From positions 1 to 13,515 of the IMG/VR virus record IMGVR_UViG_3300028952_000008: 13,515 nucleotides of DNA. One strand, given 5' to 3'. The stretch comes from a virus. Lineage: Duplodnaviria; Heunggongvirae; Uroviricota; Caudoviricetes. Every line of letters starts with the position of its first letter. Position 1 is the first letter of the stretch. The notes under the pieces were generated by a model. That model saw nothing but the letters and a program-made list of their open reading frames with translations, ran no database searches and had not been told where the DNA came from. The position numbers were made by a program, and so were the translations under genes. This document shows positions 1 through 13,515 of this stretch, in pieces.

Positions 1-1678
1 TCAGCGTCTGCCCGTTCCATACCGGCATACAGCGCATCGCCGAGCAGAAATCACTGAGCACATCCCACGCCTTACGCTGCGTGGTCAGCCAGGCATTACA
101 GGTGATGCGCGGCTCCGTGCCGCCAAAGCCGTCCGGCACCGACTGGTCGCAGTACTGGCCGATGACATACAGCGCCCATTTATCCACATCCGACGCACCA
201 AGACGTTTTCCCATGCCGTAGCGCGGATGGGTCAGCATATCCCACAGACACCAGGCCATGTTGTTGCTGTATGCTGGCTTAAACGTTCCGTCCCAGATAC
301 CGCTGTATTGTCGCGTCTGCGGGTTATAGTTCGACGGCACCTGCAGAATGCGCCCGCGAAGATGATAATTACGACTCACCTGCTGGCTGCCGAACTGCTC
401 CGAGTCCACCTGTACGCCGACCAGTGCCGTGTTCGGGTAGCACTGTTTCACATCGATGATTTCGGTGTATGACGACCAGAGCGTTTTGTTCTGCAGCTGG
501 TCTGTGGTGCTGTCCGGCGTCATCCTGCGCATCCGGATATTAAACGGGCGCGGCGGCAGGTTATCCACCACCACCGAGGCCAGATACTGCGAGGTGGTTT
601 TGCCTTTAATGGTGATGTCTTTTTCCGTCACCCAGCCACCGTTACGCTGTATCTGAACCAGCAGGCGGACTTCCGACGGATTCCGGTCCCCCTTTGAGGT
701 GGTTTCCACCAGTGCCTGCACACCGAAGGTAAAGCGCAGACGGTCGATGTTTGCAGACGTGATGGTCCGGGTAATCGGCGTGTCGTACTTCACTTCCGTA
801 CCCAGCACCGTCTCGGAGCCGGAGGATTCAAATCCCTCCGGCGGTGTCTGCTCCTGCTCACCGGCCCGGAACACCACCGTGACACCGGAGATATTGGTAT
901 TCCCCTCCCCGCCATGCATGATCTCCACCATGCGCTGCGTCATTCGGACAAATCCATTTTCAATAGCCTGCTGATAATCAATGATCACCAGCGCCGACTC
1001 CTCGAAAAGGCACTGAATTTCAGCGGGGGCATGAGCGTAATAGTCCGCAATTCTGCTGAAATTAAACACCGTGTGACGTTCTGCCGCACACAGGAGGAAT
1101 TTCTCAATATCAGGATCAAGGGACGCCGAACGTATCCGGCTGATCAGCTCCTGAGTTTTCGTATCGTCGTACAGTTCACTGATATCCGGTTTACCGCCCG
1201 ACGGCTCATAAACAGGCGTATCAATTTTCGTCGTATACGGCTCCTCCTTATTTCCTATACCGGGCAAAACATCCGTCAACAGTTCATCAATTTCTGTCGG
1301 GCCGAAGCCTGTCAGGGAGACATCAAAATCAGCATTGATTAGGACCGACAGCTCCATCCGCAACAGATCTTCATCCCAGCCAGCATTCATCGGTAGGCGA
1401 TTATCTGCCAAGCGGTACGCCTTTTTCTGCTCATCCGTCAGGCCAGACAGAACAATGACCGGAACAGAATCCATTTTGAGCATTTCAGCCGCCATAACAC
1501 GACCGTGACCCGCAATAATTTCGCCCTTTTCGTCAATCAGCACCGGATTAGTCCAGCCGAATTGCTTAATACTTTCTACCAGTTGTGCCACCTGCTCAGT
1601 ACTGTGCGTCCTGGCGTTGTGCGCATACGGTGACAATTCTTGTAATGGGCGATAGACTATCTTTAATTTCTCGCTCAT
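1..1678 (-). CDS. Chimeric ORF, 3'-truncated by the window edge: N-terminal ParB-like nuclease domain fused in frame to a lambda J-like tail tip / host-specificity protein segment (J-like part about nt 2-908)
   Basis: Hand translation from ATG at 1676-1678 (SD AAGG about 5 nt upstream) gives MSEKLKIVYRPLQELSPYAHNARTHSTEQVAQLVESIKQFGWTNPVLIDEKGEIIAGHGR..., a ParB/sulfiredoxin-type N-terminal motif. The frame stays open to ...EGNTNISGVTVVFRAGEQEQTPPEGFESSGSETVLGTEVKYDTPITRTITSANIDRLRFTFGVQALVETTSKGDRNPSEVRL..., which I recognise as phage lambda J from about residue 57. The frame was translated without a stop from 1678 down to about 661 and spot-checked at nt 2-58 (...LSDFCSAMRCMPVWNGQTL); nt 59-660 were not translated and continuity there is assumed. 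Absent from the ORF track because no stop lies inside the window. Confidence 0.75.
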   Translation of the reverse strand, partial: MSEKLKIVYRPLQELSPYAHNARTHSTEQVAQLVESIKQFGWTNPVLIDEKGEIIAGHGRVMAAEMLKMDSVPVIVLSGLTDEQKKAYRLADNRLPMNAGWDEDLLRMELSVLINADFDVSLTGFGPTEIDELLTDVLPGIGNKEEPYTTKIDTPVYEPSGGKPDISELYDDTKTQELISRIRSASLDPDIEKFLLCAAERHTVFNFSRIADYYAHAPAEIQCLFEESALVIIDYQQAIENGFVRMTQRMVEIMHGGEGNTNISGVTVVFRAGEQEQTPPEGFESSGSETVLGTEVKYDTPITRTITSANIDRLRFTFGVQALVETTSKGDRNPSEVRLLVQIQRNGGWVTEKDITIKGKTTSQYLASVVVDNLPPRPFNIRMRRMTPDSTTDQLQNKTLWSSYTEIIDVKQCYPNTALVGVQVDSEQFGSQQVSRNYHLRGRILQVPSNYNPQTRQYSGIWDGTFKPAYSNNMAWCLWDMLTHPRYGMGKRLGASDVDKWALYVIGQYCDQSVPDGFGGTEPRITCNAWLTTQRKAWDVLSDFCSAMRCMPVWNGQTL

Positions 1679-1690
1679 ACAGCCTTGCTT

Positions 1691-1729
1691 TATGAATAAA
1701 ACGCACCCCAGCAGCCAGTGCTACTGGGG
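1691..1729 (-). terminator. Candidate intrinsic terminator downstream of trkG
   Basis: Minus-strand hairpin CCCCAG-12 nt loop-CTGGGG (1706-1711 / 1724-1729) followed on the minus strand by UGCGUUUUAUUCAU. Short stem and long loop, so weak. Confidence 0.35.
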
Positions 1730-1815
1730 GCGGAGGTGTTGCTGGTAAAGTTAGGTATTGGATCAATGAGTGAGTCAATATAATATTAAACTCACAATTA
1801 TAAATCAGCCATATA

Positions 1816-3273
1816 TTAGGAGCGCCAAAAAAAAACTGAAAACAATATAATAACAGGATAAATTTCAAGGCGACCAAGAATCATAGCTATGCACATTAAA
1901 TATTTTGCAATGTCATTAAGCACTCCGAATGACGATGCAGTAGCCCCAAAACCTAATCCCATATTATTAATACATGCAGCCACTGTTGCAAATGATGTAA
2001 GAAAATCATATCCCATACCATTTAACACCAGTATAAAAAACACCGTGAAGAGAGTATAAAGAAAAAAGAAACTCCATACAGACCTCATTACACGATCTGT
2101 AACTATCTTCCCTCCTACATTTACACTCAACAACGCTCTGGGATGAGAAAGCTGATTTATCTCGTGTTTGCTTTGTTTGAAAAGTATAAGAAATCGAAGT
2201 GACTTAATTCCACCACAAGTTGAACCTATACATCCCCCAAAGAAACTTGACAACAGCAAAAACACTATCGTGTGCGTGGGCCAGTTTGCATAATCTTGCG
2301 TAGCTAAACCATTATCAGTGAGCATGGAGCTGGCAAGAAAAAACGAATGAATAAAACTTCCATGCAAGTCATACATACCTATATGCCAGACCTGGAAAGA
2401 GGTAACAATGATCACCACTAAGGCTATTAACAGAAAGAAACGAAGTTCAATATCTCTGATTAAAGGTTTTATCGTTTTTCTGCTAATAACAATATACCAA
2501 AGAGTAAAGTTGAAAGCCGATAGCAGGGAAAAAGCACCAGCCACCAGCTCAACCAAATAGTTATTAAAATATCCGATACTCTCGCTATGAGTTGAGAAAC
2601 CACCAAGCGAAACTGTGGAAATCCCGTGACAAATAGCATCAAACAAAGGCATTCCTGCAAGTCTATAACAGACAATACAAGCAATACCTAATAAAGAATA
2701 AGTTATCCACAGTGTCCGTGACGTATCGGCCAGGCGGGGAGTGAGTTTGTCATCCTTAAATGGCCCCGGCATTTCTGACTGATAAAGCTTTGCACCACCA
2801 ATACCCAATAATGGCAATACTGCAACCGCCAGAACAATAACTCCTAAACCACCTATAAAATTTAACTGTGACCGATAGTACAAATATGCCCGAGGTAATG
2901 AACTAACATCATCAATTACAGTTGCTCCTGTTGTTGTTATTCCAGAAACCCCTTCAAACAGAGCATCAATGAACGTTAAATTAAGTTCTGAGTCAATCCA
3001 TAAAGGGAATGCACTAATAACAGAAAACAAAATCCAAAACATTACAATTATAATAAACCCATCACGGGTACGTAATTGAATGCCAGATTTCTTAGTTGTA
3101 TACCACGCTCCGCCACCAATGCAAAAAAATATAACGAAAGTTATAAAGAAAACGAACAGGCTTTTTTCTTTATAAAACAATGCTACAACCATTGGTGGCA
3201 ACATTGAAAGACTATAGAGCCAAACCAGGAACCCACACATATGAGTAACAACTCTTACATGAGATGTATTCAT
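1816..3273 (-). CDS. trkG: TrkG/TrkH-family potassium uptake protein (485 aa)
   Basis: ORF-track ORF 1816..3291 begins at a TTG; the first ATG at 3273 gives 485 aa starting MNTSHVRVVTHMCGFLVWLYSLSML.... Multi-pass membrane protein with repeated glycine-rich pore-like motifs (TTTGATV, LGGFSTHSESIGYF, NNMGLGFGAT). Visibly AT-rich compared with neighbouring phage genes. Confidence 0.88.
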   Translation of the reverse strand: MNTSHVRVVTHMCGFLVWLYSLSMLPPMVVALFYKEKSLFVFFITFVIFFCIGGGAWYTTKKSGIQLRTRDGFIIIVMFWILFSVISAFPLWIDSELNLTFIDALFEGVSGITTTGATVIDDVSSLPRAYLYYRSQLNFIGGLGVIVLAVAVLPLLGIGGAKLYQSEMPGPFKDDKLTPRLADTSRTLWITYSLLGIACIVCYRLAGMPLFDAICHGISTVSLGGFSTHSESIGYFNNYLVELVAGAFSLLSAFNFTLWYIVISRKTIKPLIRDIELRFFLLIALVVIIVTSFQVWHIGMYDLHGSFIHSFFLASSMLTDNGLATQDYANWPTHTIVFLLLSSFFGGCIGSTCGGIKSLRFLILFKQSKHEINQLSHPRALLSVNVGGKIVTDRVMRSVWSFFFLYTLFTVFFILVLNGMGYDFLTSFATVAACINNMGLGFGATASSFGVLNDIAKYLMCIAMILGRLEIYPVIILFSVFFWRS

Positions 3274-5097: not shown

Positions 5098-5304
5098 TTA
5101 CTCTCCCCGTGCAGCCTTACGCTTATCTTCTTTAATCTTGAAATAAAGATTTGTCAGATACGTCAACAGGCCAAACACCAGACTACCCAGCACACCTATT
5201 GCTGCCCACTGTGAGGGCGTGACTCTATCGAGCAACTGTAAAAACCAGTAGCCAGCACTGCCTGCGGAGGTGCCATAGGCGACACCTGTTGTTAACTTAT
5301 CCAT
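5098..5304 (-). CDS. Class II holin, pinholin of the phage 21 S type
   Basis: 68 aa [68 protein letters not shown]: two TM segments plus a charged C-terminus, near-identical to the S21 pinholin as I recall it. An in-frame TAA two codons upstream rules out a longer antiholin form. Confidence 0.88.
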
Positions 5305-5364
5305 GGATTAAGGACCACCAGCCCAAGCTCAGGCACCAGAACAGGTCTAAGTAATACCCGCACG

Positions 5365-5637
5365 TTACCTCCAGATCCGTTGCTGGAAAGTGCGGGACGG
5401 ACGTGGTGGGCGTTCGGAATAAGGCAGCCTGACAGAGATTATCCAGTGCCGATAGTCGAGACTGAGAGCTTTCTTAACCTCGAACCCGCGCCTGCGGTAA
5501 GAATGAATCAGCCATTCGGCCTGTTCTTCAGTACATGGTGGGTGTTGGTACCAGTCGGTTTTAAATGCGTGTGAACGCCGCTCATGCCGGATGGCAAGGT
5601 CGGTATCAGAATTGTGAAATTTGGTTTTGTGCGCCAT
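5365..5637 (-). CDS. Hypothetical 90-aa basic protein immediately upstream of the holin
   Basis: ATG at 5637 with only a weak SD (AGAGAAAACAG-ATG); His/Arg-rich (MAHKTKFHNSDTDLAIRHERRSHAFKTDWYQHPP...). It sits 60 bp upstream of the holin and downstream of a strong terminator. No recognisable family. Confidence 0.4.
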   Translation of the reverse strand: MAHKTKFHNSDTDLAIRHERRSHAFKTDWYQHPPCTEEQAEWLIHSYRRRGFEVKKALSLDYRHWIISVRLPYSERPPRPSRTFQQRIWR

Positions 5638-5707
5638 CTGTTTTCTCTGCTGGCGCAGCAGGTGTCAGGTGTTCAGGCTGACGTGCGAATTGTAAACCAG
5701 AATGCCA

Positions 5708-5736
5708 GGAAAAAACAAAACCCGCCGAAGCGGGTT
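5708..5736 (-). terminator. Rho-independent terminator (hok mRNA 3' end, possibly also a late-operon tR'-like terminator)
   Basis: Minus strand reads AACCCGC-UUCG-GCGGGUU followed by UUGUUUUUUCC: a 7-bp GC-rich stem, tetraloop and U-tract, about 70 nt after the hok stop. Confidence 0.7.
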
Positions 5737-5804
5737 AAGTGCGGGTGCGTTGAGGATGCCTGACACATCAGAGGTGGCGAGGGATTTCTCCCCCGCCAGG
5801 TCTC

Positions 5805-5960
5805 TTACTCCTCAGGTTCGTAAGCTGTGAAGACAGCGACCTCCGTCTGGCCGGTTCGGATTCGTACCTCGCAGAGGTCTTTCCTCGTTACCAGTGCCGT
5901 CACTATGACGGTTAAACAGATGACGATCAGGGCGATTAACATCGCCTTTTGCTGCTTCAT
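5805..5960 (-). CDS. hok: Hok/Gef-family type I toxin (51 aa)
   Basis: Not in the ORF track (<60 aa). Hand translation: MKQQKAMLIALIVICLTVIVTALVTRKDLCEVRIRTGQTEVAVFTAYEPEE, with N-terminal TM helix and conserved C-E...R.G..EVA.F.AYE; SD AAGGAG 9 nt upstream. As I recall, near-identical to HokD/RelF and Gef. Confidence 0.9.
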   Translation of the reverse strand: MKQQKAMLIALIVICLTVIVTALVTRKDLCEVRIRTGQTEVAVFTAYEPEE

Positions 5961-6016
5961 AGCCTGCTTCTCCTTGACCTTTCGGTCCGTAAGAGGCTAA
6001 TCTCTATGTGTCGCAT
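5957..6016 (-). promoter_or_regulatory. hok leader with a translationally coupled 19-codon upstream ORF (mok-like)
   Basis: Minus-strand ATG at 6014-6016 opens MRHIEISLLRTERSRRSRL, ending in TGA that overlaps the hok ATG (ATGA). The uORF start sits in the palindrome TCTATGtgtcgCATAGA (6002-6019). Confidence 0.4.
5974..6003 (+). promoter_or_regulatory. Candidate promoter for a Sok-like antisense RNA
   Basis: Plus-strand TTGACC (5974-5979), 18-bp spacer, TAATCT (5998-6003); a transcript from about 6010 rightward would be antisense to the hok leader and uORF start region. No RNA evidence. Confidence 0.3.
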
Positions 6017-6218
6017 AGATATGGCCTCAGATTAATGTTAAGCGTCTTGCAGGACGCGTAATGTTAACTGGGGCTTTTCTCTATCTGCCTTTTGGTGTTC
6101 ATGCCTGAGACAGATAGCCTCAAGCACCCGCAGTTATTCTACTTAACTAAGATTTCCCCGCAAACCGTTTTTGTCCGGCACAGTAAATATCCAACTAAAC
6201 CAATGGCGTTCGCTGTAT

Positions 6219-6398
6219 TTACCGCCAGTATTCAATGCACATGACCGCCATGAACACCCCTAAAAAAAGGGCATTTATATGTCCAAACATTAATATCAAA
6301 ACATCAATTTTTTCCATATACCTTGCTGTGAAGATGATGGGCATACATGATGCGAACAACCAGAACGCAACAAACAAAAACTGCAATGCGTTTTTCAT
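6219..6398 (-). CDS. Hypothetical small membrane protein (59 aa) in an AT-rich island
   Basis: The ATG at 6398 (not the ORF-track start 6437) has a strong SD AGGGGGA 5 nt upstream. MKNALQFLFVAFWLFASCMPIIFTARYMEKIDVLILMFGHINALFLGVFMAVMCIEYWR has two hydrophobic segments. Surrounding sequence about 6230-6520 is markedly AT-rich. Confidence 0.5.
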   Translation of the reverse strand: MKNALQFLFVAFWLFASCMPIIFTARYMEKIDVLILMFGHINALFLGVFMAVMCIEYWR

Positions 6399-6518
6399 TA
6401 TTCCCCCTACAATCAATGTGCAATAACATTTAAACACACCTCAATTTGGCCGGACATATAAATATCTAAACCAGAAAAAATCACTTACATAGCGTTACAA
6501 ACTCTTTAGTCTAAATAT

Positions 6519-7034
6519 TCATCGTAAAACATCCTCCACGCTTATCAGTCCATTTCGTTTCAGGTAATCTATCGCCTTCTCCGGTAATTTGCAGTCCGGC
6601 TGAGCTTTTTTCAGTTGACTGACCAGTCGTTTAACCCACATTGTTAATTCGCTAACCTGATTGCCGGATGCTGGTGGATTGTCGGCTTTACCCAGAATGG
6701 CAGCGCAGCAGGCCTCTCTGAGCACCCAGTCAACAGCATCCTTCCATGCTCCTGTTTCGACTGGCGGATTCTCACGCTTTACCTGTTCATAAAAGCGCAC
6801 GGCTTTAACCAGTCCTTCTGATGTCACCGGGACTGGCGGGCCGATGAATAAGGCCTGAATTTCATAGTTCGGCCTGTCGTTACAATCCTCTTTTGTCGGT
6901 ACATATTTCCAGTCACCAGCCCACGGCTTCCCCTGAAAGTCTGTAACGTCTTTTTTCACGTAGCGATATCGCCATGCAACTGGTTTTGCCTGCCCTGCCG
7001 TTTCATGCCCTTCCTGATAATTAATCTCGCTCAT
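6519..7034 (-). CDS. Hypothetical 171-aa protein, last gene of a three-gene coupled operon
   Basis: ATG at 7034 overlaps the stop of the upstream 58-aa ORF (ATGA). Long ORF with normal composition (MSEINYQEGHETAGQAKPVAWRYRYVKKDVTDFQGKPWAGDWKYVPTKEDCNDRP...). No recognisable family. Confidence 0.7.
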   Translation of the reverse strand: MSEINYQEGHETAGQAKPVAWRYRYVKKDVTDFQGKPWAGDWKYVPTKEDCNDRPNYEIQALFIGPPVPVTSEGLVKAVRFYEQVKRENPPVETGAWKDAVDWVLREACCAAILGKADNPPASGNQVSELTMWVKRLVSQLKKAQPDCKLPEKAIDYLKRNGLISVEDVLR

Positions 7035-7207
7035 TCATCGCCCCACTCATCACAATATGCTTCGACCGGAGTTTTTCCTGCTTCATAATCATCACGCCAT
7101 GCTTCAGCATCAGCAGCACTGCCACCACGTAACTCTGCATAGTCCATTAACAGTTCATGCCATGCTTCAAAACTGACGTTGTATTTAGTTGAACCAAAAT
7201 CAGCCAT
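7031..7207 (-). CDS. Hypothetical small acidic protein (58 aa)
   Basis: Not in the ORF track. Hand translation MADFGSTKYNVSFEAWHELLMDYAELRGGSAADAEAWRDDYEAGKTPVEAYCDEWGDE; by my count 15 Asp/Glu against 4 Lys/Arg. Its start overlaps the stop of the 60-aa ORF (ATGGCTGA) and its stop overlaps the next start (ATGA). Confidence 0.55.
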   Translation of the reverse strand: MADFGSTKYNVSFEAWHELLMDYAELRGGSAADAEAWRDDYEAGKTPVEAYCDEWGDE

Positions 7208-7382
7208 TTTGCTCTTCCTCTTCGTCTTTTATTTCGTGATGTGAGTAATTGCAGTAGTTAAAGAAAATATCTTTTGCTTCGTCATGTATTTCATCAGGCG
7301 TCGCATCATCATCCACTTCGAATTCATCCTCGAAATCTCCACCGGCTATTTCCGTTTCAATAATTATTTTAAACTTTCGCAT
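7200..7382 (-). CDS. Hypothetical small, extremely acidic protein (60 aa)
   Basis: MRKFKIIIETEIAGGDFEDEFEVDDDATPDEIHDEAKDIFFNYCNYSHHEIKDEEEEQNG; by my count 21 Asp/Glu against 5 Lys/Arg. AT-rich coding sequence. Upstream SD AGGAGG is separated from the ATG by a stable hairpin. Confidence 0.6.
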   Translation of the reverse strand: MRKFKIIIETEIAGGDFEDEFEVDDDATPDEIHDEAKDIFFNYCNYSHHEIKDEEEEQNG

Positions 7383-7388
7383 TTAACT

Positions 7389-7411
7389 ACCGCCCTTTCG
7401 GGCGGCCTCCT
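7389..7411 (-). promoter_or_regulatory. SD-hairpin-start arrangement upstream of the 60-aa acidic ORF
   Basis: mRNA reads 5' CAUCAGGAGG-CCGCCC-GAAA-GGGCGG-UAGUUAA-AUG: a 6-bp GC stem with GNRA loop sits between SD and start codon (linear spacing about 23 nt, about 7 nt if folded). Confidence 0.4.
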
Positions 7412-7475
7412 GATGTTCTGAGGGTGCAGAAATCCCTCCGGTTAAGGATTAAATTTTTAACAGAGCTAAATTTAA

Positions 7476-7832
7476 TTATTCAGTTCTGGATTTTGTCGCC
7501 CTGCGTATCCGCGCTTTCGCGTTACGCTCAATCTGAATTAGCTTTTCTATATTTTTTCGCCTTTCCCGCTCCTCCTGACGCAAGAGCCTTACATCATCTG
7601 CCAGTCTGGTTTCTCTTTTCGCCACAGAGAGCATCCAGTCAAATGGCTCCACAACTGCACCGCAGATTTTACAGCGGACCTGACGCTCTTTTTCGTCAAC
7701 CCGGACAGAGGCGTGATGACAATATGGTCTTTCCGATGGCTCATAAAGAAAATTAACCTGATTACGAGGGTCATCCTCTTTTACCGGAAATAAAACGATA
7801 TTGCTTAACTCATCCTCTGGTTTTATTTCCAT
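7476..7832 (-). CDS. Hypothetical zinc-ribbon protein with a basic coiled C-terminus (118 aa)
   Basis: ATG at 7832 with strong SD GGAGAGGAG. Contains PYCHHASVRVDEKERQVRCKICG (Cys/His cluster with C-x2-C) and an Arg/Lys/Glu-rich tail LLRQEERERRKNIEKLIQIERNAKARIRRATKSRTE. Confidence 0.7.
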   Translation of the reverse strand: MEIKPEDELSNIVLFPVKEDDPRNQVNFLYEPSERPYCHHASVRVDEKERQVRCKICGAVVEPFDWMLSVAKRETRLADDVRLLRQEERERRKNIEKLIQIERNAKARIRRATKSRTE

Positions 7833-7875
7833 GCTCCTCTCCTTTGATGCGAATGCCAGCGGTAATTGAAGCCTN

Positions 7876-7885
7876 NNNNNNNNNA
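7876..7885. other. Assembly gap (10 N)
   Basis: Run of n characters; true length and content unknown. Confidence 0.99.
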
Positions 7886-7896
7886 GCTAATTTCAC

Positions 7897-8319
7897 TCAC
7901 AGTACCGCCTCCTGAAAATTACCCTGATAGAAAGCCAGTACACGCTGCATAGCTTCACTCTTCCGGCACTCGCGACAGATTATGTTTAGGCGACTGTCGT
8001 AGCGACGTATTTCTCCGTCAGGTAACGACCAGATAAGGTCCGGATCAACCACAACCGGTTTCTTCAGCTTTGCCCTCGATAATTTTTTGCGGGCATTTTG
8101 CCAGTCTTTACGAGCCTGTTCAGACGGGAATAACCCGTAGCCAGAATTGTATACATCGCCACTGGCAACCAGCTCTCTGGCCAGAACGCTCATCAGATAT
8201 CTTGTCGCCCCCGTTTTAGCTTCCAGTTGTCGTAACGTCTCTCGCCCGCTCTGGCGTACAAGATCAACAATCTGCCCTTTAATTTTTTCTCGCTCTTCCT
8301 GTGTAAATACTTTTGCCAT
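7897..8319 (-). CDS. Hypothetical 140-aa protein (possible N-terminal helix-turn-helix)
   Basis: The ORF-track start at 8385 is a TTG; the ATG at 8319 has strong SD GGGGAGGG 4 nt upstream, giving MAKVFTQEEREKIKGQIVDLVRQSGRETLRQLEAKTGATRYLMSVLARELV.... The stop is only 12 bp from the assembly gap. Confidence 0.6.
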   Translation of the reverse strand: MAKVFTQEEREKIKGQIVDLVRQSGRETLRQLEAKTGATRYLMSVLARELVASGDVYNSGYGLFPSEQARKDWQNARKKLSRAKLKKPVVVDPDLIWSLPDGEIRRYDSRLNIICRECRKSEAMQRVLAFYQGNFQEAVL

Positions 8320-13254: not shown

Positions 13255-13440
13255 ATGATTGCACATCACTTCGGAACTGATGAAATACCACGTCAGTGTG
13301 TGACTCCTGGCGATTATGTTCTTCATGAAGGCCGGACATATATTGCCTCGGCAAACAATATTAAAAAGCGAAAACTATATATTCGTAACCTGACCACAAA
13401 AACATGCATTACTGACCGGGTAATGACTCCAACTTATTGA
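13255..13440 (+). CDS. kilR: Small protein (61 aa) at the position of KilR (Rac FtsZ/division inhibitor)
   Basis: ATG at 13255 with SD GGAG 6 nt upstream (the ORF-track start 13243 lacks an SD): [61 protein letters not shown]. Assignment rests mainly on position divergent from sieB. Confidence 0.5.
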
Positions 13441-13515
13441 TAGTGTTTTATGTTCAGATAATGCCCGATGACTTTGTCATGCAGCTCCACCGATTTTGAG
13501 AACGACAGCGACTTC

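What the first reader, a model, noticed from the sequence alone, without database searches (positions are those of the whole stretch)
1..1678. In-frame fusion of a ParB-like nuclease domain to a lambda J-like tail protein: probable deletion scar
A single open frame starts with a ParB-type N-terminal domain and, after about 300 codons, continues without a stop into sequence I recognise as lambda J from about residue 57 (junction near nt 905-910, ...MHGGEG/NTNISGVTVVF...). The J-like N-terminus and the whole packaging/head/tail block that normally separates lysis genes from J are missing. The simplest reading is a large internal deletion that left a translatable chimera, which would also explain why this prophage is cryptic. 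Whether the chimera is expressed, or retains ParB-like nuclease activity, is open.
Basis: partly seen in the sequence, partly recalled or inferred. Interest (0 to 1): 0.5.

Follow-up and report, generated by a model that had tools for sequence, protein, structure and literature searches.

The report
Deletion scar fusing ynaK to J
A 17.6-kb deletion in the Rac prophage of one E. coli lineage removed all head and most tail genes and joined a ParB-like gene in frame to the tail-tip gene J; this is ordinary prophage decay, although the J-side breakpoint turns out to be reused surprisingly often.

Summary
The minus strand 1678->1 is one open frame. Codons 1-258 are YnaK, a ParB/Srx-type protein of 262-264 aa when intact. 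The rest is lambda-type tail-tip protein J from E56/G57, about 99% identical to lambda J. The junction is a 4-nt GAGG microhomology at window 904-907, so the fusion is at codon 258, not "about 300".

The window is the Rac prophage at ttcA, 100% identical to E. coli TUM10008. There the chimera is 1339 aa and RefSeq names it "gpJ". Intact Rac-type prophages (T-HYM1, 1919D3, B19429) keep ynaK and J 17.6 kb apart. Between them lie a TAGT glycosyltransferase gene, terS, terL, portal, capsid genes and tail genes through I.

So this is a microhomology-mediated internal deletion, in frame because the shared GAG sits in the same codon phase in both genes. The contiguous junction occurs in 1 of 5426 complete genomes and on about 30 other contigs. 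A terminator-like hairpin lies upstream, and the TAGT gene and every tail-assembly gene upstream of J were deleted. A function is therefore unlikely.

Unexpectedly, J nt 166 is the boundary in at least 10 independent chimeras with different left partners. I could not explain this apparent deletion hotspot.

The parts
1..1678 (-). 5' part (559 codons) of the chimeric ynaK'-'J ORF. The full ORF is 1339 codons in the identical genome TUM10008 (L001 11659-15678).
   Evidence: Open frame. Full-length translation. Window 1-1800 is 100% identical to NZ_CP135658.1.
908..1678 (-). ynaK-derived segment, codons 1-257 plus the shared codon 258. It is identical in protein sequence to YnaK of strain 41 up to E258.
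   Evidence: BLAST to intact ynaK loci covers window 901-1800. ORF comparison. phrog_620 matches the whole standalone protein.
1409..1612 (-). ParB N-terminal (ParB/Srx) domain, residues 23-90, including the G57-H-G-R60 motif.
   Evidence: Pfam PF02195, 27.5 bits against a cutoff of 26.3. Weak PDB sequence matches to Spo0J/ParB.
904..907 (-). Deletion junction. GAGG is shared by the ynaK 3' end (GGGGAGGAGGAATAT) and J codons 56-57 (AGTGAGGGGAATAC). The extended imperfect homology is 10 matched nt over an 11-nt stretch.
   Evidence: Three-way sequence comparisons.
1..903 (-). J-derived segment, lambda J residues 57-357 within the window. It continues to the natural J stop outside the window.
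   Evidence: PDB alignment to 8iyk/9e7m. NCBIfam lambda_TipJ profile positions 55-1163, 2159.8 bits against a cutoff of 1950 for the full chimera. The J and tail-fibre flank (about 6 kb, from the junction outward) is 99.97% identical to T-HYM1.
452..817 (-). FNIII-A domain of gpJ, chimera residues 288-409.
   Evidence: Pfam PF24801, E 2.3e-42.
1696..1729 (-). Intrinsic-terminator-like hairpin (CCCCAGTAGCACTGGCTGCTGGGG followed by TGCGTTTTAT). It lies between the trkG stop and the chimera's ATG.
   Evidence: Consensus scan. It shows a pattern match only, not function.
1816..3273 (-). trkG, the potassium-transporter cargo gene immediately upstream. It is retained in every decayed variant examined.
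   Evidence: Annotation of the identical genome and of the other loci.

Best explanation
The ORF is the scar of a single internal deletion of about 17.64 kb in a Rac-type lambdoid prophage integrated at ttcA. Illegitimate recombination joined the purine-rich 3' end of ynaK (GGGGAGGAGGAATAT) to J codons 56-57 (AGTGAGGGGAATAC). The two sequences share an exact GAGG and 10 matched nt over an 11-nt stretch. The deletion removed the last four codons of ynaK and the overlapping TAGT glycosyltransferase gene. It also removed a small gene, terS, terL, portal, minor head, scaffold and P22-type coat genes, head-tail connector genes, tail tube, ydaY and the T-like chaperone genes, tape measure, M, L, K, I and J codons 1-55. 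The shared GAG is a Glu codon in the same phase in both genes, so the product is automatically in frame: YnaK(1-258)-J(57-end), 1339 aa. The parental arrangement, breakpoints, deletion size and open frame are shown. The following is inferred. The chimera is a by-product with no function. It lies behind a terminator-like hairpin in a late operon. YnaK's neighbouring TAGT gene is gone. J lacks the start of its N-terminal hub region, and every tail-assembly gene upstream of J (tube, chaperones, H, M, L, K, I) is gone.
For: The frame is open and carries both domains. The intact ynaK ORF of 262-264 aa ends ...MHGGEEE(EE)YA*. BLAST splits the window into a J block (1-907) and a ynaK block (901-1800). 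These blocks are 17,641-17,647 bp apart in the intact prophages L005, L006 and L174. The prophage is Rac: ttcA-intR-xisR-ralR-recT-recE-racC...trkG. The contiguous junction is in 1 of 5426 complete genomes, and the exact protein is on 25 contigs plus two single-substitution variants. It also appears on a gut-metagenome contig, so it is real DNA in a small lineage. A terminator-like hairpin lies upstream. [quoted passage not shown]
Against: The two arms differ in their similarity to the best undeleted relative: 99.97% on the J side and 97.7% on the ynaK side. The immediate parent was therefore not sampled, and later homologous exchange or an inter-prophage event cannot be excluded. No expression data were available. 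The lineage shows no frameshift in the 4-kb ORF. That fits a young scar but does not exclude maintenance by selection.
Confidence: 0.9

Rival explanations
1. The fusion is a domesticated, selected gene. A ParB-like module tethered to a J tail-tip body would give the host a new activity, for example interference with tail assembly of superinfecting lambdoid phages or a tailocin-like function.
For: The 1339-codon ORF is intact on about 30 contigs, with only two single amino-acid variants. Several other chimeras that start at J56 are also in frame.
Against: The junction is confined to one small lineage, 1 of 5426 complete genomes. The in-frame state follows from the codon phase of the GAG microhomology. 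Other scars in the same interval are out of frame (L008, L011, K-12). All tail-assembly genes upstream of J and the TAGT gene are deleted. A terminator-like hairpin precedes the ORF. Partners of J56 chimeras are unrelated fragments: RusA, gpC, gpE, gpL, coat protein and gpT.
Confidence: 0.05
2. The joint arose by recombination between two different co-resident prophages, a Rac-type left arm and a lambda-type J, rather than by deletion within one prophage.
For: Identity to T-HYM1 is unequal on the two sides: 99.97% against 97.7%. E. coli genomes carry a median of three places matching this query.
Against: Both arms are colinear with single intact Rac-type prophages at the same ttcA locus, in the same order and orientation. 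The tail-fibre genes downstream of J are the same proteins as in T-HYM1. An inter-prophage crossover would also have rearranged the chromosome, yet both prophage ends are in their usual positions. Ordinary homologous exchange after the deletion explains the unequal identity equally well.
Confidence: 0.05
3. The chimera is an assembly or annotation artefact.
For: J is a multi-copy repeat in E. coli genomes, and assemblers can mis-join repeats.
Against: The same junction is in a complete chromosome, on 25 or more independent contigs from NCBI and ENA, and on a metagenome contig of 33.7 kb. The junction also has the microhomology expected of a real deletion.
Confidence: 0.01

Closest known systems
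Rac cryptic prophage of E. coli K-12 (ynaK, ydaY, ynaA/tmpR, lomR region)
   Same: It has the same integration site (ttcA) and the same backbone: intR, xisR, ralR, recET, racC, kilR, sieB, the replication genes, trkG and ynaK. Like the window's prophage, it is defective because deletions removed the morphogenetic genes.
   Different: K-12 carries different, independent deletions. ynaK is cut at codon 87 and joined out of frame upstream of ydaY. The tape-measure gene is joined to lom, so J is absent altogether. The window's Rac keeps 258 ynaK codons and all of J from codon 56.
Bacteriophage lambda gpJ (tip attachment protein J; PDB 8IYK, 9E7M; NCBIfam NF049904)
   Same: It is about 99% identical over residues 57-357. 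The full chimera scores 2159.8 bits against the lambda_TipJ model, above the cutoff of 1950.
   Different: The chimera lacks residues 1-55, the start of the N-terminal hub region (PMC10721106; PMC11101478). It carries 258 foreign residues instead, and its C-terminal part diverges from the lambda J sequence as I recall it (not aligned with a tool). The genes upstream of J needed to build a tail (tube, chaperones, H, M, L, K, I) are absent from the locus.
Phage ParB-like proteins that partner DNA-modification enzymes (phrog_620; ParB-dependent 5mYOX T-dioxygenases, PMC13229309)
   Same: Intact YnaK is a standalone ParB-N protein whose gene overlaps a TAGT-family glycosyltransferase gene just upstream of terS. 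The same gene pair is annotated in Lactobacillus phage phi jlb1. In the published system both the N-terminal and the C-terminal domains of the ParB-like activator are required.
   Different: No dioxygenase is adjacent in the Rac-type phages examined, and no experiment links YnaK to TAGT. In the window the TAGT gene is deleted and the YnaK C-terminus is buried in a fusion of more than 1000 aa.
Short-homology-dependent illegitimate recombination and prophage decay by deletion in E. coli
   Same: The event is a large deletion between 2-10-nt microhomologies inside a prophage. It leaves chimeric ORFs, and many independent variants occur at the same locus.
   Different: One endpoint, J nt 166, recurs with at least 10 different partners. 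Simple random microhomology use does not predict this.

Membership tests
ParB/Srx N-terminal domain proteins (Pfam PF02195; phage family phrog_620) | Profile match to the ParB_N domain above the curated threshold | tested here: met
   PF02195 scores 27.5 bits against a cutoff of 26.3 at residues 23-90. Intact YnaK matches phrog_620 at E 1.5e-90 over residues 1-250.
ParB/Srx N-terminal domain proteins (Pfam PF02195; phage family phrog_620) | Conserved Gly/Arg nucleotide-binding motif (GxxR, equivalent to ParB box II) | tested here: met
   The sequence shows ...IIAGHGRVMAAE... at residues 54-65. Equating this with box II rests on my knowledge of ParB, not on a structural test.
ParB/Srx N-terminal domain proteins (Pfam PF02195; phage family phrog_620) | Nuclease, CTPase or activator activity | not testable with these tools
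   No biochemical data are available. The partner TAGT gene is absent from the window.
Lambda tip attachment protein J (NCBIfam NF049904 lambda_TipJ) | Whole-protein score above the curated cutoff | tested here: met
   The score is 2159.8 bits against a cutoff of 1950, matching profile positions 55-1163 of 1163. This is why RefSeq names the chimera gpJ.
Lambda tip attachment protein J (NCBIfam NF049904 lambda_TipJ) | Native N-terminus (residues 1-55, start of the hub-domain region) | tested here: not met
   The alignment starts at J residue 55/56. Residues 1-258 of the chimera are YnaK.
Lambda tip attachment protein J (NCBIfam NF049904 lambda_TipJ) | Genomic context with tail genes H, M, L, K and I directly upstream | tested here: not met
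   trkG and the ynaK start lie directly upstream. H, M, L, K and I lie within the deleted 17.6 kb.
Rac prophage (defective lambdoid prophage at ttcA) | Integration next to ttcA with intR/xisR and the ralR-recT-recE-racC-kilR-sieB...trkG-ynaK gene order | tested here: met
   Annotation of the identical genome TUM10008. The order is colinear with K-12-type Rac.
Microhomology-mediated deletion scar | Both flanks colinear with an undeleted relative, and a short sequence at the joint shared by both parental sites | tested here: met
   The blocks are 17,641-17,647 bp apart in three intact relatives. GAGG is shared at the joint.

The most novel reading that the evidence does not exclude
J nt 166 (codon 56, ...ACAGT|GAGGGGAATACC...) may be a sequence-specific hotspot for deletion endpoints in lambdoid prophages of E. 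coli, with a probable second hotspot at codon 212. Deletions that start anywhere upstream, from rusA to gene L, repeatedly end at this exact nucleotide. That pattern would point to a site-directed break, a pause or a template-switch signal inside J that channels how these prophages are inactivated. The window's chimera would be one product of that process.
Probability: 0.45. Interest if true: 0.5.

Novelty: new member of a known kind. Interest (0 to 1): 0.22.

Why it matters
Taken alone, the finding documents one more route by which Rac decays. It also exposes two annotation traps. RefSeq names the chimera "gpJ". Intact 262-264-aa ynaK genes are annotated as truncated pseudogenes, apparently because the 87-aa K-12 remnant serves as the reference. 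The comparison also shows that Rac has been inactivated many times independently. Each time the structural block was lost while trkG and the tail-fibre end were kept. If the recurrent J nt 166 endpoint is a true mutational hotspot, it would give a tractable sequence-level handle on how prophages are disabled.

Tried and rejected
**Native architecture.**
- No intact relative has a J with a ParB-like N-terminus.
- A junction-spanning protein search found only other scars.

**Possible causes of the J56 hotspot.**
- DNA folding of +/-90 nt around codons 56, 101 and 212 showed no outstanding hairpin at the breakpoints.
- A k-mer comparison of the three sites found no shared motif.
- I looked by eye for Chi (GCTGGTGG or its complement) next to the sites and found none.
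- I compared the site with the Gin/Hin/Cin/Pin invertase crossover consensus as I remember it. The match was poor, about 6 of 12 in the left half.
- Cas3-type unidirectional deletion seems unlikely, because the putative protospacer and the GAG survive in every product.

**Sampling artefact.**
- A second protein search with different query boundaries (J90-307) again recovered J56 chimeras and did not pile up at the new boundary.
- Exact-site scans of IMG/VR gave 3 junction classes at J56 and none at three arbitrary control sites.
- A random sample of 120 IMG/VR J copies contained no J56 junction, so each event is rare.

**The second J-side cluster at codon 101 (L008, L011).** Local microhomology (TTACC / ATACC) or a nested 70-bp deletion explains it, so I did not pursue it.

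**Literature.** Searches found nothing on a J-gene deletion hotspot or on this ynaK-J fusion.

Full report
**1. The observation**

The feature lies on the minus strand. Translating window 1678->1 gives 559 codons with no stop, and the frame leaves the window at nt 1. The other two frames are closed.

- Pfam places a ParB N-terminal domain at residues 23-90 (27.5 bits, cutoff 26.3).
- Pfam places the FNIII-A domain of gpJ at residues 288-409.
- Residues 257-559 align to lambda gpJ residues 55-357 (PDB 8iyk, 9e7m) with about four substitutions.
- The figure of "about 300 codons" is not right. The fusion point is codon 258.

**2. What the two halves are**

The window is 100% identical to the chromosome of E. 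coli TUM10008. There the prophage sits at ttcA with intR, xisR, ralR, recT, recE, racC, an IS1-disrupted kilR, sieB, replication genes, a lysis cassette and trkG. This is Rac. The chimeric ORF in that genome is 1339 codons and is annotated "gpJ: phage attachment tail tip protein J", WP_241380650.1. It passes the NCBIfam lambda_TipJ cutoff (2159.8 against 1950 bits) although it matches only profile positions 55-1163.

The N-terminal half is YnaK. In intact relatives ynaK is a standalone ORF of 262-264 aa ending ...MHGGEEE(EE)YA*. It matches the whole length of phage family phrog_620. The allele in strain 41 is identical in protein sequence to the window up to E258, so the chimera keeps 258 of 262 residues.

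**3. The parental arrangement and the size of the deletion**

Complete Rac-type prophages at the same locus are found in strains B19429, 1919D3 and T-HYM1. The partial phage record vB_EcoS-683R6 shows the same order as far as gene I. The order is trkG, ynaK, TAGT-family glycosyltransferase (overlapping the ynaK end), small ORF, terS, terL, portal, minor head, scaffold, P22-type coat, connector genes, tail terminator, tail tube, ydaY, T-like ORF, tape measure, M, L, K, I, J.

BLAST splits the window into a J block (1-907) and a ynaK block (901-1800). These blocks lie 17,647, 17,641 and 17,642 bp apart in 1919D3, B19429 and T-HYM1. About 21 complete genes are missing, plus the last four codons of ynaK and J codons 1-55. 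T-HYM1 is 99.97% identical to TUM10008 over about 6 kb on the J and tail-fibre side, but only 97.7% identical on the ynaK, trkG and lysis side. The exact parent was therefore not sampled.

**4. The junction**

- ynaK parent: ...ATGCATGGCGGGGAGGAGGAATATGCGTGA
- J parent: ...CTGGACAGTGAGGGGAATACCAATATCTCC
- Window...ATGCATGGCGGGGAGGGGAATACCAATATCTCC

The exact shared string is GAGG (window 904-907). Allowing a one-base gap, the parents share GAGG(A)GGAATA, which is 10 matched nt over an 11-nt stretch. This is the signature of short-homology illegitimate recombination. GAG is a Glu codon in the same phase in both genes, so an in-frame product follows automatically and needs no selection.

**5. 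Distribution and independence**

A 300-nt probe across the joint finds the contiguous junction in 1 of 5426 complete E. coli genomes. The exact 1339-aa protein is on 25 contigs, with two single-substitution variants and some contig-end fragments. One gut-metagenome contig also carries the joint. The scar is therefore real but confined to a small, young lineage.

Other Rac-type prophages lost the same block through different events:

| Locus | Strain or class | Junctions | Frame |
|---|---|---|---|
| L003 | K-12 type | ynaK codon 87 to upstream of ydaY; tape measure to lom | out of frame |
| L007 | Z142-3 | TAGT codon ~47, then 54 nt of the T-like gene, then J56 | in frame |
| L009 | 28 genomes, several typed O6:H16 | ynaK codon 146 to J56 | in frame |
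| L008 | ET729 | TAGT to J codon 101 | out of frame |
| L011 | EC2001 | ynaK end to J codon 101 | out of frame |
| L010 | PSJ-23 | TAGT to gene I | not determined |

The (GAG)n tract at the ynaK 3' end is itself a repeated left breakpoint, with at least seven different joints.

**6. Likely consequence (inference)**

- A terminator-like hairpin (window 1706-1729, then a T-run) separates trkG from the chimera's ATG.
- In the intact phage this region is late-operon DNA, where read-through would be expected to depend on antitermination. That expectation rests on my knowledge of lambdoid phages, not on a tool result.
- Pfam and PHROGs searches of several ORFs between the replication and lysis modules returned no antiterminator family, but I did not screen that region completely.
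- YnaK's neighbouring TAGT gene is deleted.
- Published work shows that phage ParB-like proteins can activate DNA-modifying enzymes and need both their N- and C-terminal domains (PMC13229309). Here the C-terminus is fused to more than 1000 residues.
- The J part lacks residues 1-55, the start of the N-terminal hub region. [quoted passage not shown]
- Every tail-assembly gene upstream of J (tube, chaperones, H, M, L, K, I) is gone.

I therefore rate the chimera a functionless by-product, with confidence about 0.9 for the deletion and somewhat lower for the lack of function.

**7. An unexpected pattern**

The junction-spanning protein search returned many unrelated chimeras whose J part starts at exactly E56/G57. 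I confirmed several at the DNA level.

Independent left partners:
- YnaK codon 258 (the window)
- YnaK codon 146
- the Rac T-like ORF
- lambda gpT
- gpE
- gpL
- the Rac coat protein
- gpC at two different sites
- RusA

For the six classes whose left-hand parental sequence I could read, the shared bases at the joint (GA, GAG, TGA or GAGG) include J nt 166-167. All seven classes seen at DNA level show GAG immediately before GGGAAT.

Tests of whether this is more than chance:
- Across two protein searches with different query boundaries, 8 of about 15 independent N-terminal chimeras start at J56. The rest scatter at residues 3, ~40, 92, ~113, 124, ~170 and 212.
- Exact-site scans of IMG/VR used a non-native base followed by 35 native nt. 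They gave 3 junction classes at nt 166 and none at three arbitrary control sites, nt 100, 250 and 421.
- Codon 212 behaves likewise as a left-retained endpoint. At least six partners appear in the protein data, and 2 of 2 IMG/VR hits are junctions.

I found no hairpin, Chi site, invertase-type crossover site or shared motif that explains this. Three caveats apply. The protein tool preferentially retrieves short proteins. Protein-level detection sees only in-frame joints. Only three control sites were scanned.

**8. Verdict**

The object is an ordinary prophage deletion scar and a new instance of a known kind. Its main practical value is as an annotation warning. The recurrent J nt 166 endpoint is the only part that might reward further work.

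Noticed in passing
window 904-907 (J nt 166-169); also L007, L009, L012-L016, L137, L139, L140, L144, L147, L148, L150, L152, L153: J codon 56 (ACAGT|GAGGGGAATACC) is the homology boundary in at least 10 independent chimeras with different left partners: YnaK at two sites, the Rac T-like ORF, gpT, gpE, gpL, the Rac coat protein, gpC at two sites, and RusA. Three arbitrary control sites in J gave no junctions in IMG/VR. The mechanism is unexplained.
   Followed up: partly
J codon 212 (window about nt 437-439 on the minus strand, ...AAACAGTGCTAC|CCG); L015 5404, L172, L173: This looks like a second recurrent endpoint. J sequence is retained up to Y212 and joined to at least six different downstream partners. 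One terminase-J chimera instead keeps J from Y212 onward. The two sites together bracket the FNIII-A domain segment (J56-212).
   Followed up: partly
window 905-925 (ynaK 3' end); P0064, P0194, P0198, P0200, P0201, P0204: The (GAG)n Glu tract in the last eight codons of ynaK varies from 3 to 5 repeats between strains. It is the left breakpoint of at least seven different deletions. It also appears to serve as the Shine-Dalgarno region of the overlapping TAGT gene.
   Followed up: partly
L002 12522-12779, L005/L006 20522-20779, L174 24214-24471: RefSeq annotates intact 262-264-aa ynaK genes as pseudogenes 'missing C-terminus' covering only the first 86 codons. The likely cause is that the truncated 87-aa K-12 YnaK is the naming reference. 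Conversely, the chimera is annotated as a normal gpJ.
   Followed up: yes
L002 11060-12779 (absent from the window): In intact Rac-type phages ynaK overlaps a TAGT-family glycosyltransferase gene (PF20691, E 6e-35; phrog_842) just upstream of terS. The same ParB-like plus glycosyltransferase pair is annotated in Lactobacillus phage phi jlb1. This suggests a conserved DNA-modification module with no adjacent dioxygenase.
   Followed up: partly
window 1696-1729, minus strand: A strong terminator-like hairpin with a T-run lies between the trkG stop and the chimera's start codon. trkG would then be an autonomous cargo transcription unit inside the late region.
   Followed up: no
window about 13278-13515 (L001 27278-27975): An IS1 element interrupts kilR, a second and independent lesion in this Rac copy.
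   Followed up: no
window about 5100-7900: The region between the replication genes and the lysis cassette differs from intact relatives, which carry DUF1367, DUF1364 and DUF1133 genes there. It holds a Hok/Gef-type gene, DUF7167, a frameshifted ORF and PHROG families of unknown function. No antiterminator family was returned for the ORFs I searched, but the region was not screened completely.
   Followed up: partly
L001 3758-7207 (outside the window): The sitABCD iron/manganese transporter genes lie directly beyond the tail-fibre end of this Rac copy, between the prophage remnant and uspF/ompN. Z142-3 (L007) and EC2001 (L011) have ynaM/ydfK/pinR there instead.
   Followed up: no
L009 (NZ_CP029741.1) and about 27 other complete genomes, several typed O6:H16: A trkG-ynaK-bearing prophage with the YnaK146-J56 scar sits next to bioA/ybhB rather than at ttcA. 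Rac-type late regions therefore occur at a second chromosomal site.
   Followed up: no
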